Below are positions 7,258-29,200 of a stretch of 64,000 nt of DNA, in pieces (position 1 is the stretch's first letter; each line of letters starts with the position of its first letter). The position numbers were made by a program, and so were the translations under genes. Source of the DNA: the human T2T-CHM13v2.0 reference genome, Homo sapiens. The notes beneath the pieces are model-generated. The model did no database searches. It worked only from the letters and a program-made list of their open reading frames with translations, and had not been told where the DNA came from. Location: the NCBI RefSeq assembly GCF_009914755.1, contig NC_060930.1; one strand, given 5' to 3'.

Positions 7258-7447
7258 AAAACAGGTTTCTGCTGACCTCTGGCTGGGAGGGTGGGTCTCC
7301 TCTCCTCCCACAGATGTGATTCCCTTGTTCTCTCCCGCTCCCTCCTTCTTCCCTCATATTGTCATGGCCTTAAGATACCCCTCCCTGGAGAGGGAGCGTC
7401 CAGAAGTTACGGCCTCCCCTGCCTGGTGGCAACTATAAATGCCACAG
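7258..7447 (+). promoter_or_regulatory. Promoter of the mucin pseudogene (AAAACAGGTTT, GGGTGGG, TATA)
   Basis: TATAAA 7434-7439 within CTATAAATGCCACAG, identical to MUC22 61110-61124; motifs at 7258-7268 and 7289-7295. Confidence 0.75.
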
Positions 7448-7724
7448 CTATGGTCAAGTGAGAAAAGAAATTAAGCCAGACATATTGTGGGAGCAACCCT
7501 CAGAACCCAGGAATCCAGCATTCCCAGTCCCCACTCACCACTGTCTTGGAACCTACCCCAACTGATCTTACTCCTCCCAGAACCCTGCCCCTGGCAAGCT
7601 TTTAATTCTTCCTGCAACTTCATGTCCCATTGAGACACCAGGCATCAAGGCCCCCTCTGGAGCCCATCTGCCCTCTAGAACCCAGGCATTCTAGATAACA
7701 ACTTCCCACATGGATTATTTCAAG

Positions 7725-7793
7725 ATGAGGTGAGGGAAATTACCTCCCACCTCCTGCATCCAGGTGATGCTTCTCTTTGGAATCTTGAGACTG
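7725..7793 (+). pseudogene. Mucin pseudogene exon 1 (signal peptide): MR*GKLPPTSCIQVMLLFGILRL
   Basis: Aligns with MUC22 [26 protein letters not shown] 7731-7733; donor GTAAGT at 7794; 69 nt versus 70 nt in MUC22. Confidence 0.85.
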
Positions 7794-9311
7794 GTAAGTG
7801 AATTATCCATCAATCGGAGAAGACACTGAGGCCACAAAAAGTCTGAAGGAGACAAGGGTTCCTGTCCCAGGCATTCTGTTTGCTTTTCTTATTCTCATTC
7901 TTTTGCAAAAGCAAAAAGCAAGCAAAGATGATGAACTTCTTTTTTGCCCCTTTCTGCAAAAGCCAGTACTAACCTTAACCCCCACTAACCACGATTTTGA
8001 CCCCCAACTTCACCTTGCAGCAAACCCACCTTCATCTTCCCCTTCCAATGCTCCGCTGTAAGCATGAACACAAATAATAGCTGTGTTGTATTTCCTTAGA
8101 ATCCCGGGTTTAACGGCTGCTCAACAAATGCTTTGTATCTAACTTGAAAATTCTAGTTTCAATATCATCTTTAAATATTTATTAGAGCTAGGCTCCAAGT
8201 CTAAAGCCAAGTGAAATGAAAATATCACTTCCAGAAATACTGCCTAAATTAAAATCCTCAGTAGGGCTTTCATAATCCCCGGATAGAGACAGGGAGGGAT
8301 CCTTCGGATCCCAGGGATACGGGAACTGTGGGTGATATTAGCCTGAAGAGAAGTACAATCCAAATTCCTGTCTTCCTAGCCATTTCACCTGACTTCTCTC
8401 CACCTGACTTCTCTCCTTGGTCCCTTCAATGTTTCAAGTTTCTCTGCCTAATGACTACAACCCAATGTCAGGCAGATTTATAAAGCCCCTTCGCTTCCAC
8501 TGTAGGATGGAATGCCATAAAAAGGGAGCAAGGAGACAGTTGTGGAATTGGAATAAACAGAAACAGCCCTAGGCTGAATGAACAGGAGGCTGCTTTGTGG
8601 TGGCTTCTTTGATGTCTGTTTCCTGCATCCTCTCTCTGCTCTCTTATCCCAGGCACTCTCCTGGAGACCCTGCCTTGCACATCCTGTTCTTTTCCTCCTC
8701 CCTGCGTCTCTGTGAGCTTGTTCATTTTAAGAGGCCCAAATTATTACTGCAACAGGCAACTTCCAAACTCATATTAAGTCTACCTTGGCTCTGAAATCCA
8801 GTCCTTTATTTTCAATTTTTTTTCAATAATATCTTCACTTGGATGTCACATCATATCAAACGTGACATTCACGTGTTCATCTGGCAAACATTTTTTGAGC
8901 ATCTACTCTGTGCTAGTTCTGAAGATAAATCAGTGAACAAAACAGCAACAGGCCCTGCCTTCAGGGAGCTCACAGTTCACTAGGAAAGGCAGAGATCACA
9001 CAAAGAAGGCATATAATAAAAGAGAGGCACAAGTGTGCAAAATACTGTCAGGACCCACCTCGTCTTCCCACCATCAAGTCTAAAAAGCCGCCTTCATCAG
9101 CATCCATTCTCCCCTGCTAACATTGGAGTGTTCGTGCATCTTGGCTCTGGCTCCCCCATCCCACACCTCCTGCCTTCTTCATGGGCTTCTTCCCCTTCCA
9201 GTTTTTCCTTCTCCTTCTACAGGGTCCTTCCCAACACCAGCCAAATAAGCCCTAAGCAGTGTGCACAGGAAGCACCCAGAGGAGAGTATTTTTAAAAAGT
9301 AGATTTCTAAA

Positions 9312-9762
9312 GACCCGGCACGGTGGCTCATGCGTATAATCCCAGCACTTTGGGAGGCTGAGGTGGGCGGATCACGCCAGGAGTTTGAGACCAGCCTGGA
9401 CAACATAGCGAAACCCCGTCTCTACTAAAAATACAAAACTTAGCCAGGTGTGGTGGTGCACACCTGTAATCTCAGCTACTTGGGAGGCTGAGGCAGGGGA
9501 ATCACTTGAACCTGGGAGGCAGAGGTTGCAGTGAGCTGAGATCACACCAGTGCACCCCAGCCTGGGTGACAGAATGAGATGCTGTCTCAAAAAAATAAAA
9601 AATAAATAAATAAAATGGAGATGGCCACTGGATGCAGTGGTTCAGGCCTGTAATCCCAGCACTTTTGGAAGACAAGGTGGGAGGATTGCCCAAAGCTAGG
9701 AGTCAGAGACCTGCCTGGGCGACATTGCGAGACACTGTCTCTATTAAAAAAAAAAAAAAAAA
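9312..9762 (+). mobile_element. AluS (9312-9612) followed by a FLAM/left monomer (9623-9762)
   Basis: Alu consensus motifs and A tails. Confidence 0.9.
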
Positions 9763-26523: not shown

Positions 26524-27280
26524 TGAAAGTGGGAAAAACACAAACTGTGTTTCCTCTGCTCTCACACCACCACCAACACAAAACACTTCTGGTGACCAAA
26601 TTAAGAGGGGAAGTTCTTCCCACACTAAGCAAGCAATCAGTTCTGCAGCAGACACCAGCTCGGTGTCCTCCGATTCAGTGCTGGCACTGCCTACCTGGAG
26701 ATAGCATCAGATCCACAGACTAAGCGCGCAGTCCCTCAACACCAACCGCTCCTTCCCACAGGCTGCCAAGTCCAGGCCTCTGGAACTTCTGACCAACTGG
26801 AGCAAGTTGGAGTTGGCTACTCCTGTTTGGTTTCGATTAATTTGCAGGAGTGGCTGACTGAACTCAGGGAAACACCTTTACTGGTTTATTACAAAGGATA
26901 TTACAAAGGATACAGGTGAAGAGGCGTGGAGGGAGAAGGAGCAGGGAGCTTCCATGCCCTCCCCAGCACTCCATCCTCCAGGAACCTCCATATGTTTTCT
27001 GAGCCCTGGCCTTTGGGGTTTTTACAGAGGCTTCATTATGTAGGTATACCTGATTAAACCATGGCCACTGGTAATCAACTTAACCTTCAGTCCCCTCTCC
27101 TCCCTGGAGGTTAAGGGTTAAGGGGTGGTGCTTTGGTCTTTCCGGTGATTAGCCCCCATCCTGTAGCCAACAGTTGACTCATTCGCATACAAAAAAAAAA
27201 ATCACTTTTCAGTACCTAAGGATTTTAGGAGCTGCATGCCAGGAAATGTGCAGAAGTCCAAATATATGTTTCACGTATCA
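26524..27280. mobile_element. MER21-like LTR
   Basis: gacaccagctcggtgtcctccgattca...tacctggagatagcatcagatcc...gaactcagggaaac motifs; family from memory. Confidence 0.7.
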
Positions 27281-27339
27281 ACTTAATACAGTTGGGAGAA
27301 AGGTTAAAAGTTAAATTACACTTAAAAATAAAAAGAACA

Positions 27340-28335
27340 GCCGGGCGCAGTTCTGTAACCTCAACACTTTGGGAGGCTGAGGCGGATGGATCATCTGAGG
27401 TAAGGAGTTCAAGACCAGCCTGGCCAACATGGGGAAACCCTGTCTCTACTAAAAATACAAAAATTAGTCGGGTATGGTGGCTTATGCATGTAATCCCAGC
27501 TATTCTGGAGGATGAGGCAGGAGAATTGCTTGAACCTGGGAGGCAGAGGTTGCAGTGAGCCGAGATCGTGCTACTGCACTCCAGCCTGGGTAGCAGAGCA
27601 AGACTCTGTCTCAAGAAATAAAAAAAAAATAAAAAGAACAATATTAATTGAAAAAAATAAATACTGTTCACAGATGAAAAAATTTTGAACTATAATTTAC
27701 AAAAGTACACAAATATTATTTGTACAGCTTGATTAATTTCAAAATGTGTTAACACTTGTACAACCATTACCCAACTTAAAATGTAGAATATTTCTACCAT
27801 CTGAGTAGTTTATTTTGTGGCCCTTCCCAGATAATACCCACTCCATCAAAGGTAAGCACTATTCTAGCTTCTATTTTATGAACTTTAAAAAAAATTTTTC
27901 ATTTTAATTTTTGGATGGGGTCTCACTCTGTCACCCAGGCTGGAGTCCAGTGGTGCCGTCTTGGCTCACTGCAGCTTCTGTCTACCCAGAGATAGAGCTG
28001 GGTTCAAGTGATCCTCTCGCCTTGGCCTCCCAAAGTACTAGGATTACTGGCATGAGCCACTGTACCTGGCCTTATGAACTTTTATTTATTTTTACCTGAC
28101 CTCATAGACATGCAACCTTTTTGGTTGATTTACACAATAAAAGATTCCCTACTCTTAGCTGACTCTGTTCCCAGGTACAGGATGCAAATTTACCTTGTCT
28201 TGTTTTTTTTATTTTTGTAGAGATGGGGTTTCACCATGTTGCCCAGGCTGGTCTCTGGAATGCCTGGGCTCAAGCAATCCACCTACCTCAGCCTCCAAAA
28301 GTTTTGGGATTACAGGCACGAGCCACCATGCCCAG
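27340..28335. mobile_element. AluS (27340-27640, +) and two antisense Alu fragments (27905-28071, 28200-28335)
   Basis: Alu motifs. Confidence 0.85.
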
Positions 28336-28597
28336 ACTTATCTTGTCTTGAAAGTTGAGCAGCATAGATCCCTACCAAGGTACAAGTATACTAATTAGGA
28401 AGACTGTTTTCTCCAATAAATAAATAAATAAGAGGAAGAGAGTCCTAAATATCATCCACACACACACACACACAGGAAGACTTGATGAGAAAATAGACAA
28501 TATTGAAAAGTGAAAATTTATGAATTTTGATAATCCAAGGTTTAATGATAAGAAAGAAAAGGAGTTAACTACTAATATATATATTTTTCTCTTTTAG

Positions 28598-29200
28598 AAG
28601 GATCTTTCTTTACCCTGACAAATAGAGGCATTTATAACCTCCATGACAACAGCCTTGACCTTGGTTTATACCTGGACTCAGTCCTGGGCTCTGGGACATT
28701 CCACAGCCTGGGAAATGCACTCATTCATGGAGGGGGACTTGAGATGGGACACACAGGAACACATGGCTTTGGACATGGAGTGGGCCATGAGCTGAGCCAC
28801 AGCCATGGAGATGGCTGTGGAGTGAATCATGGTGGGCGTTATGGACTTGGAGGAGGCTACAGCAATAATCATGAAATGCATCACAGAGAAGGTCGCCAAG
28901 GCAAAGGAGAGTATAGACATAGACTGGATAATGGAAGGTGCTATGGAAAAGAAAATCTTGGGGAAGAAGGGGGATCATGGAGGAGAAGGTAGTGACCATA
29001 AAATGGGTCAGGATGGGCTTCTCTGAGGTCTCCAAGGGATTGGCCATAGAGATGGTCATGATCAAAATCAAGAAAAGAACCAGAGAAAAGAGCACAGAGG
29101 GTTTGGCCAACGGGACAGTCAGAAAAATAGGGAGTGGTTCTGGAGGAGACCTGCAGCCTCACCAGCTTTGGGTGTGAGCTCAAGTGAAAATATCCCCTGA
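28598..29200 (+). pseudogene. Mucin pseudogene cytoplasmic-tail exon (Gly/His-rich, ending WFWRRP...ENIP*)
   Basis: Acceptor cttttAG 28596-28597; [43 protein letters not shown]; frameshifts ~28615 and ~28970, TGA 29024-29026, terminal TGA 29198-29200. Confidence 0.85.

What the first reader, a model, noticed from the sequence alone, without database searches (positions are those of the whole stretch)
7258..29200. Hidden fourth transmembrane-mucin gene (complete fossil) between MUCL3 and MUC21
Seen: five blocks scattered over 22 kb assemble in order into one gene: TATA promoter (7434), signal exon (7725-7793), 2.2-kb Thr/Ser exon (14707-16913), stalk+TM exon (~23371-23746) and Gly/His tail exon (28598-29200). 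Most GT/AG sites survive. The exon 2 acceptor is phase 1 and an intron follows the TM helix, as in MUC21. Promoter, exon 1 and ~2 kb of intron 1 align with MUC22 inside this window. Recalled knowledge: the later exons closely resemble the MUC22 C-terminus ([34 protein letters not shown]). About ten lesions are visible, including TGA at codon 3. Inference: a lost MUC22 paralogue that I do not know as a named gene and that may be intact in other mammals.
Basis: partly seen in the sequence, partly recalled or inferred. Interest (0 to 1): 0.88.

Follow-up and report, generated by a model that had tools for sequence, protein, structure and literature searches.

The report
Dead MUC22-like mucin gene copy
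Between MUCL3 and MUC21 in the human MHC lies a complete but broken, intron-containing copy of the airway mucin gene MUC22, showing that this mucin cluster once had one more member.

Summary
A promoter with a TATA box and four coding exons (7725-7793, 14707-16913, about 23375-23746, 28598-29200) lie in gene order. Each aligns collinearly with the matching part of MUC22, whose later exons I fetched from the same assembly. In whole-genome DNA searches, each of the four blocks tested matched only itself and MUC22. About eleven disabling lesions are present, so this is an unprocessed (duplicated) MUC22-like pseudogene. It is absent from the RefSeq table supplied.

New findings:
- Divergence from MUC22 is mosaic. 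K2P is 0.3-0.5 in the 5' part but 0.075-0.16 from the end of the big exon to the TM exon (Fisher p=5e-13). This suggests an old duplication followed by gene conversion.
- The 732-codon Thr/Ser frame has no stop. This argues weakly that the copy was once functional.
- The fossil tail runs to a WFWRRP+15-residue C-terminus shared with MUC21. Human MUC22 stops earlier and keeps only a vestige of this in its 3'UTR.
- An ERV pol fragment fills intron 2.

I could not test whether an intact orthologue exists in other mammals, or whether GENCODE already lists the locus. This is a new member of a known kind, of moderate interest.

The parts
7203..7724 (+). Fossil promoter and 5'UTR region. TATAAA lies at 7434-7439, so the predicted start site is about 25-30 nt downstream.
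   Evidence: Aligns with the MUC22 promoter at 60799-61371. HSPs are 73-79% identical and global K2P is 0.50. The TATAAA columns are invariant in the three-way alignment with MUC22 and MUC21. The MUC22 RefSeq exon starts 23-28 nt after its own TATAAA (plus the hub table).
7725..7793 (+). Exon 1 (signal peptide). It has TGA at codon 3 and is 69 nt long against 70 nt in MUC22, so it no longer ends in phase 1.
   Evidence: MR*GKLPPTSCIQVMLLFGILRL against MUC22 [23 protein letters not shown]. The donor GTAAGT is kept.
7794..14706 (+). Intron 1. It carries high-copy ~300-nt repeats, the annotated NAPGP2 processed pseudogene (12069-12646, minus strand) and a purine-rich simple repeat (about 13440-13670).
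   Evidence: Homology to MUC22 intron 1 at 7794-8216 and, weakly, at 8791-9307 and 13309-13398. Repeat intervals are from the self-BLAST, the sequence, and NAPGP2 from the hub table.
14707..16913 (+). Large Thr/Ser (PTS) exon of 2207 nt. It reads as 732 codons in four frame segments, with three frameshifts (near 14928, near 16193, and a 5-nt insertion at 16343) and no stop codon.
   Evidence: Composition is T 28% and S 20%. The 3' end aligns 1:1 with the end of the MUC22 big exon. Lag-30 autocorrelation is 0.45 against 0.715 in MUC22. TRF finds no long array here, against 135.7 copies of a 30-nt unit in MUC22.
16914..23374 (+). Intron 2. The parts homologous to MUC22 are 16914-17042 and 22574-23374. 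Between them, at about 17045-22570, lies an endogenous-retrovirus internal fragment.
   Evidence: K2P is 0.118, 0.075 and 0.156 for the homologous parts. The ORFs hit Pfam RVT_1 (8e-17) and RT_RNaseH_2 (3e-14), and weakly RNase_H and dUTPase. No LTR-like direct repeat of 60 nt or more was found.
23375..23746 (+). Stalk + transmembrane exon (TM helix [20 protein letters not shown], about 23676-23735). The acceptor and first 12 nt are deleted. There is a 1-nt deletion at 23444, TAA at 23583-23585, and one G lost at the donor.
   Evidence: Nucleotide identity to MUC22 exon 83202-83587 is 87.9% and amino-acid identity is 94 of 128.
23747..28597 (+). Intron 3
   Evidence: Only its last ~115 nt (28484-28597) align with MUC22, K2P 0.49. 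High-copy repeats lie inside it.
28598..29200 (+). Gly/His-rich cytoplasmic tail exon. Its frame does not match exon 3. It has a frameshift within 28937-28971 and TGA at 29024-29026. WFWRRP lies at 29135-29152 and the final stop at 29198-29200.
   Evidence: Identity to the MUC22 tail CDS is 82.3% at nucleotide level and 62 of 89 at amino-acid level.
29201..29284 (+). 3' flank weakly homologous to the MUC22 3'UTR
   Evidence: 29219-29284 ~ 86244-86303, 67% identity, E 0.39. This is weak and only collinearity supports it.

Best explanation
This is an unprocessed (duplicated, intron-containing) pseudogene of a MUC22-like transmembrane mucin. A tandem duplication in the MHC class I mucin cluster made a second MUC22-type gene. 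That gene had its own TATA promoter, a signal-peptide exon, one large Thr/Ser exon, a stalk+TM exon and a Gly/His tail exon.

The copy was probably kept as a working gene for a long time (inferred). Later a tract of about 1.6 kb of MUC22 sequence, running from the last ~100 nt of the big exon to the TM exon, was homogenised with MUC22 by gene conversion (inferred from the mosaic divergence). The copy was then inactivated in the lineage leading to humans and has since collected about eleven lesions and several retroelement insertions.

Today it cannot encode a mucin. Any present activity would be as a transcribed or regulatory relic, and that was not tested.
For: Shown:
- Promoter and all four coding exons are collinear with MUC22 at E down to 0.
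- Each of the four blocks tested matches only itself and MUC22 in the whole genome.
- The exon boundaries used for MUC22 give one open 1783-aa CDS. That is 10 aa more than the 1773-residue reference CDS quoted by Norman et al. 2017 (passages), which equals one 30-nt repeat unit.
- Splice phases match: phase 1 at the exon 2 acceptor and at the exon 2 donor.
- Lesions: TGA at codon 3; exon 1 one nt short; three frameshifts in the PTS exon; a 21-bp deletion of the exon 3 acceptor; a 1-nt deletion at 23444; TAA at 23583; loss of a donor G with a frame mismatch; a tail frameshift within 28937-28971; TGA at 29024.
- Introns are retained and filled with repeats, an ERV fragment and NAPGP2.

Mosaic divergence:
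- Central tract differences are 137 of 1301 (10.5%). Even the best 5' HSPs differ at 118 of 477 (24.7%). Fisher p=5e-13.

Once functional (inferred):
- There are no stops in the 732 PTS codons. In the simulation, P(0 stops) is 0.019-0.008 if the copy had drifted neutrally by 0.2-0.25 substitutions per site.
- The tail CDS has K2P 0.21 and dN/dS 0.51, against K2P 0.49 and 0.60 in the flanking non-coding DNA.
Against: - The 5' boundary of the PTS exon is not fixed by homology. The last ~80 nt of MUC22 intron 1 match weakly at 13309-13398, which is 1.3 kb upstream of the proposed acceptor.
- The 'no stop' count follows frames that I chose by Thr/Ser content, which could hide a stop.
- dN/dS of the stalk/TM exon (0.87) and of the PTS 3' end (0.89) is near neutral.
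- In a tree of tail peptides, the fossil groups with human MUC22 (support 80/88) and not with any non-human fragment. This gives no sign of a separate orthologue lineage.
- Pajic et al. 2022 (passages) report no MUC22 orthologue in mouse, cow or ferret. That sits uneasily with a very old duplication.
- Global alignments of diverged non-coding DNA probably inflate the 5' K2P. HSP-only identity is about 75%.
- RefSeq's selected MUC22 transcript has 5 exons, and I located only 4 of them.
Confidence: 0.8

Rival explanations
1. Dead-on-arrival duplicate. The segment was copied from MUC22 but never worked as a gene, and all conservation is residual similarity plus gene conversion.
For: dN/dS is near 1 for the stalk/TM exon (0.87) and the PTS 3' end (0.89). 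No transcript is annotated in the supplied table. The fossil and MUC22 tails group together in the tree, which repeated conversion could also produce.
Against: The 732 Thr/Ser codons have no stop even though the 5' part differs from MUC22 by K2P 0.3-0.5. The simulated P(0 stops) is 0.008-0.019 at 0.2-0.25 substitutions per site. The tail CDS is far better conserved than its flanks. The promoter, signal exon and splice phases were all copied and kept.
Confidence: 0.13
2. The locus is still active as a non-coding element. The fossil promoter, together with the adjacent RefSeq enhancer at 6379-7061, drives a lncRNA or regulates MUCL3/MUC21. This does not exclude the pseudogene reading.
For: The TATA box and proximal promoter are retained at 73-79% identity to MUC22. 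A RefSeq functional enhancer abuts the promoter homology (hub table). Several GT/AG sites are intact.
Against: No transcript is annotated here in the RefSeq table. No expression data could be consulted. Promoter divergence is like that of neutral DNA (K2P 0.50).
Confidence: 0.15
3. It still encodes a protein, for example through another start codon, alternative splicing or an intact allele in other haplotypes.
For: The long open Thr/Ser frame segments (437 aa and 222 aa ORFs) and a 138-aa open tail ORF.
Against: About eleven independent lesions are spread over all four exons. They include a stop at codon 3, a deleted acceptor and a stop just before the TM helix. No single transcript could join signal peptide, PTS domain and TM helix in frame.
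Confidence: 0.02

Closest known systems
MUC22 (PBMUCL1), window 56616-86408
   Same: Same exon plan and splice phases. The promoter TATA context is homologous. The 3' end of the PTS exon, intron 2, the stalk+TM exon and the tail exon are homologous at 70-93% identity. The peptides [22 protein letters not shown] and [12 protein letters not shown] are shared.
   Different: The fossil is broken in about eleven places. Its PTS exon is 2.2 kb with only weak 30-nt periodicity, against 4.6 kb with 135.7 copies of a 30-nt unit in MUC22. Its tail reads about 110 codons further, to a WFWRRP C-terminus, while MUC22 stops at TGA 85942-85944. Intron 2 carries an ERV fragment that MUC22 lacks. MUC22 carries a 362-bp insertion with a 17-20 nt target duplication that the fossil lacks.
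MUC21 (epiglycanin), window 34372-40562
   Same: Same family layout: a signal exon ending in phase 1, one PTS exon, an intron right after the TM helix and a short tail exon. The TATA region is shared. The C-terminus is shared: WFWRRP followed by 15 residues ending in P and the stop (BLASTP E 1e-5 for the single comparison).
   Different: At DNA level only two weak hits link the loci outside the Thr/Ser exons: 62.5% over 96 nt and 68% over 69 nt. MUC21 has a 45-nt repeat unit. In MUC21 the stalk and TM are part of the PTS exon.
HCG22 (PBMUCL2; this alias is recalled from memory, not from a call), window 107184-113585
   Same: It is another degenerate member of the same cluster. Its TM exon resembles that of MUC22 (29% over 122 aa, E 1.5e-8) and its repeats match the MUC22 PTS exon.
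   Different: It shows almost no direct similarity to the fossil: one hit, E 0.014, at the TM exon. HCG22 is annotated (hub table: ncRNA_pseudogene) and the fossil is not.
Unprocessed (duplicated) pseudogenes in general
   Same: It retains promoter, introns and exon order, lies next to its parent gene, and carries stops, frameshifts and a lost splice site.
   Different: Nothing in kind. The unusual points are the mosaic divergence and the retention of an ancestral C-terminus that the living parent gene has lost.

Membership tests
MUC21/MUC22-type transmembrane mucin gene (MHC class I mucin cluster) | Short signal-peptide exon that ends in phase 1 | tested here: inconclusive
   A homologous exon is present (7725-7793) with the donor GTAAGT kept. 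It is 69 nt long, not 70, so it now ends in phase 0, and it has TGA at codon 3.
MUC21/MUC22-type transmembrane mucin gene (MHC class I mucin cluster) | One large Ser/Thr-rich (PTS) exon entered in phase 1 | tested here: met
   Exon 14707-16913 has its acceptor in phase 1. Thr+Ser make up 48% of 732 codons. The 3' end is homologous to the MUC22 big exon at E 8e-103.
MUC21/MUC22-type transmembrane mucin gene (MHC class I mucin cluster) | Single TM helix at the end of an exon, followed directly by an intron | tested here: met
   [24 protein letters not shown] is followed by GTGAGT at 23747. It aligns with the MUC22 TM and donor. MUC21 shows the same arrangement.
MUC21/MUC22-type transmembrane mucin gene (MHC class I mucin cluster) | Gly/His-rich cytoplasmic tail exon | tested here: met
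   Exon 28598-29200 is 82% identical to the MUC22 tail CDS. Its C-terminal WFWRRP motif is shared with MUC21.
MUC21/MUC22-type transmembrane mucin gene (MHC class I mucin cluster) | Intact open reading frame across all exons (a functional member) | tested here: not met
   About eleven lesions are present. It is therefore a pseudogene member, not a working mucin gene.
Unprocessed (duplicated) pseudogene | Introns and promoter of the parent gene are retained, and there is no sign of retroposition | tested here: met
   Promoter homology, intron 1 start, intron 2 and intron 3 end are all collinear with MUC22.
Unprocessed (duplicated) pseudogene | Disabling mutations relative to the parent | tested here: met
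   See the lesion list.
Unprocessed (duplicated) pseudogene | No productive transcript or protein | not testable with these tools
   No expression data are held. The RefSeq table lists no transcript here.

The most novel reading that the evidence does not exclude
The fossil is the human remnant of a fourth working MUC21/22-family membrane mucin. On this reading it was lost in the primate lineage leading to humans and is still intact in some other primates or mammals. It also preserves the family's ancestral long cytoplasmic tail, which ends in WFWRRP plus 15 residues. Human MUC22 lost that tail through a premature stop, so the signalling end of MUC22 would be a recent truncation.
Probability: 0.35. 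Interest if true: 0.55.

Novelty: new member of a known kind. Interest (0 to 1): 0.4.

Why it matters
The interval lies in the MHC class I mucin cluster. Norman et al. 2017 (passages) link MUC22 polymorphism to diffuse panbronchiolitis, citing Hijikata et al. 2011.

- **Mapping artefacts.** A MUC22-like copy reaches 85-93% identity to MUC22 over about 1.3 kb. This can mislead read mapping, probe design and variant calling around the MUC22 TM exon.
- **Cluster history.** The fossil shows that the cluster had one more member and that its members exchanged sequence by conversion.
- **Tail evolution.** It gives an internal outgroup indicating that the human MUC22 cytoplasmic tail is truncated relative to the family's ancestral C-terminus.
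- **Possible gene loss.** If an intact orthologue exists in other species, this would be a datable mucin gene loss in the human lineage.

Tried and rejected
- **Cross-species protein searches.** Three word-index searches found nothing: fossil tail against longer proteins, fossil tail against proteins of near length, and P0001 against longer proteins. The full HMMER scan gave 8 hits at E<=0.001. P0002 and P0006 are unrelated repeat proteins. The other six are short anonymous ORF fragments with no context.
- **Separate orthologue group.** Fragments sharing 'IYNLHD' with the fossil (P0005, P0008) might have marked a separate orthologue group. The tree does not support this: the fossil pairs with human MUC22 (80/88) and all other forks are weak.
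- **'MUC22-like' in the T2T assembly.** Pajic et al. 2022 name such a gene without giving its place. The neighbouring model LOC124901299 is not mucin-like. A genome-wide protein search with 500 aa of the MUC22 PTS domain returned only MUC22 itself and one weak chr18 hit, but only 86 of 5485 candidates were scored. So I cannot say whether 'MUC22-like' refers to this locus.
- **Alternative exon 2 acceptor near 13400.** This rests on a weak match (13309-13398 ~ 76370-76449, E 5e-5). No Thr/Ser coding follows it, so I kept 14707.
- **Other negative results.** No LTRs flank the ERV fragment. Neither the fossil nor MUC22 has an AATAAA or ATTAAA signal in the 3' region searched. MUC21, HCG22 or MUCL3 as the parent gene gave only weak or no matches.
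- **Sources not available.** Hijikata et al. 2011 is not held, and what I say of it comes from Norman et al.'s passages or from recall.

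
Full report
**What is there.** The window is human chr6 (T2T-CHM13), MHC class I region.
- TATAAA lies at 7434-7439. ATG is at 7725, TGA is codon 3, and the donor GT follows position 7793.
- A 2207-nt Thr/Ser-rich block runs from an AG acceptor at 14705-14706 to a GT donor at 16914-16915.
- A stalk plus TM block ends at 23746.
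- A Gly/His block runs from the AG at 28596-28597 to a stop at 29198-29200.

**Comparison with the real MUC22.** Only exon 1 of MUC22 lies in the window, so I fetched the rest of the gene from the same assembly.
- Exons inferred at 61372-61441, 76475-81103, 83202-83587 and 85678-85944 (window coordinates) give one open 1783-aa frame.
- That is ten residues more than the 1773-residue reference CDS quoted by Norman et al. 2017 (passages). Ten residues equal one 30-nt repeat unit.
- Caveat: RefSeq's selected transcript has five exons and I placed only four.
- BLASTN of 5000-31000 against the MUC22 locus, with high-copy repeats set aside, gives only collinear plus-strand hits. These cover the promoter, exon 1 and intron 1 start, the intron 2 end, the stalk/TM exon and the tail exon.
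- Without the low-complexity filter, the last 650 nt of the big exon plus 130 nt of intron 2 also align, at E 8e-103.
- More permissive scoring adds 7203-8216, a weak intron 1 block at 8791-9307, and 28484-29105.
- Four whole-genome DNA searches found only self and MUC22, so the blocks are not dispersed repeats.
- MUC21 and HCG22 match the fossil only weakly, and the MUCL3 3' end does not match at all. MUC22 is therefore the parent or sister gene.

**Lesions relative to the MUC22 frame:**
1. AGA>TGA at 7731-7733.
2. Exon 1 is one nt short, so it ends in phase 0 against a phase-1 acceptor.
3. Frameshift in the PTS exon near 14928.
4. Frameshift in the PTS exon near 16193.
5. A 5-nt insertion in the PTS exon at 16343.
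6. A 21-bp deletion that removes the acceptor and the first 12 nt of the stalk exon.
7. A 1-nt deletion at 23444, which leads to TGA at 23455-23457.
8. GAA>TAA at 23583.
9. One G lost at the exon 3 donor, with a frame mismatch to the tail exon.
10. A frameshift within 28937-28971, seen against the continuous frame of fragment P0001.
11. TGA at 29024-29026.

The acceptor of exon 2, the donors of exons 1, 2 and 3, and the acceptor of exon 4 keep AG or GT. The exon 3 acceptor does not.

**History.** Divergence from MUC22 is strongly mosaic.

| Region | K2P |
|---|---|
| Promoter | 0.50 |
| Exon 1 | 0.45 |
| Intron 1 | 0.54-0.73 |
| PTS exon 3' end | 0.39 |
| Intron 2 start (16914-17042) | 0.118 |
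| Intron 2 (22574-23066) | 0.075 |
| Intron 2 end (23067-23382) | 0.156 |
| Stalk/TM exon | 0.134 |
| Intron 3 end | 0.49 |
| Tail CDS | 0.21 |
| Beyond the MUC22 stop | 0.60 |

- The global alignments probably inflate the high values. Identity within the 5' HSPs alone is about 75%.
- Even against those HSPs the central tract is less diverged: 137 of 1301 differences against 118 of 477 (Fisher p=5e-13).
- Sliding windows place the switch about 100 nt before the end of the big exon.
- I read this as an old duplication followed by gene conversion of a ~1.6-kb tract from MUC22. This is inference.
- After that event, MUC22 gained a 362-bp insertion with a 17-20-nt target-site duplication that the fossil lacks. 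I call it L1-like from recall only.
- The fossil's intron 2 holds a 5.5-kb retroviral internal fragment with RVT_1, RNase H and a weak dUTPase hit after the integrase-like ORF. 'ERV-L-like' is my recalled label.

**Was it ever a working gene?**
- The Thr/Ser frame reads 732 codons without a stop.
- Simulated neutral drift of that sequence gives P(0 stops) of 0.12 at 0.10 substitutions per site and 0.019 at 0.20.
- The tail CDS is better conserved than its flanks (dN/dS 0.51). The stalk/TM exon (0.87) and the PTS 3' end (0.89) look nearly neutral.
- Together this favours a period of function and a later loss, but only moderately. I chose the frames by Thr/Ser content.
- The time of inactivation is poorly bounded, at tens of millions of years. 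That estimate rests on lesion density and on mutation rates that I recalled and did not compute.

**An unexpected point.**
- The fossil tail continues about 110 codons past the position of the MUC22 stop. It ends ...EWFWRRPAASPALGVSSSENIP-stop.
- MUC21 ends ...[26 protein letters not shown]. The motif is the same and so is the distance to the stop (BLASTP E 1e-5).
- Human MUC22 stops at 85942-85944. A decayed trace of this region remains in its 3'UTR.
- An anonymous 157-aa ORF fragment (P0001) reads this long tail in one frame. It matches the fossil better (52-58% over two HSPs) than MUC22 (41.5%).
- So the fossil seems to keep the family's ancestral C-terminus, which human MUC22 has lost.

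**Other species.**
- No other mammalian genome is held.
- Of 8 library hits, six are short MUC22-like tail or TM fragments of unknown origin.
- A tree of these does not separate a fossil-type lineage from a MUC22-type lineage.
- Whether an intact orthologue exists remains open.

**Literature.**
- Searches and the passages read describe no MUC22-like pseudogene between MUCL3 and MUC21.
- Pajic et al. 2022 say the T2T assembly identifies a 'MUC22-like' mucin without giving its place. They also found no MUC22 orthologue in mouse, cow or ferret.
- I did not open any supplementary files of these papers, and GENCODE could not be consulted.

**Verdict.** It is an unprocessed MUC22-like pseudogene that is absent from the supplied RefSeq table. 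It has a mosaic conversion history and retains an ancestral tail. It is a new member of a known kind, of moderate interest.

Noticed in passing
L005:1942-2420 (window 85942-86420) against window 28864-29200: Human MUC22 appears to be truncated. Its stop (window 85942-85944) lies about 110 codons before the WFWRRP C-terminus, which is kept by the fossil and by MUC21. A decayed trace of that region sits in the MUC22 3'UTR.
   Followed up: partly
window 17045-22570 (+): An endogenous retrovirus internal fragment lies in the fossil's intron 2. It has Pfam RVT_1 and RT_RNaseH_2 hits, a weak dUTPase hit after an integrase-like ORF, and no detectable LTRs. It sits exactly between the two low-divergence blocks.
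   Followed up: partly
L004:8504-8864 (window 82504-82864): MUC22 intron 3 has a 362-bp insertion flanked by a 17-20-nt direct duplication, and the fossil lacks it. It looks like an L1 3' fragment, a label I recalled and did not test. It post-dates the conversion or duplication of this tract.
   Followed up: partly
protein P0003 (423 aa, anonymous library entry): This is one predicted protein. It joins a MUC22-like TM helix and tail to HCG22-like 'TADPGTTEDS' repeats and a second TM helix like that of HCG22. This suggests that MUC22-type and HCG22-type genes are also neighbours in another organism.
   Followed up: partly
window 6379-7061: The RefSeq 'enhancer' feature ends about 140 nt before the start of the promoter homology with MUC22 (7203). 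It could be the old upstream control region of the fossil gene.
   Followed up: no
window 13440-13670: A long purine-rich GGAA/GA/GGGGA simple repeat lies in intron 1. It sits between a weak match to the end of MUC22 intron 1 (13309-13398) and the acceptor used here (14706).
   Followed up: no
L015:1533-2231 (window about -12470 to -11770): The neighbouring RefSeq model LOC124901299 is not mucin-like. Its longest ORF has one hydrophobic helix (DWAIVLITLTLVAAIVSLMYGI) and no Ser/Thr repeats.
   Followed up: partly
window 34097-34255, 60858-61006, 7260-7353: The promoters of MUC21, MUC22 and the fossil share a block about 250-300 nt upstream of the TATA box (AGGGTGGGTC...) as well as the TATAAA itself. 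This may be a common regulatory core of the cluster.
   Followed up: no
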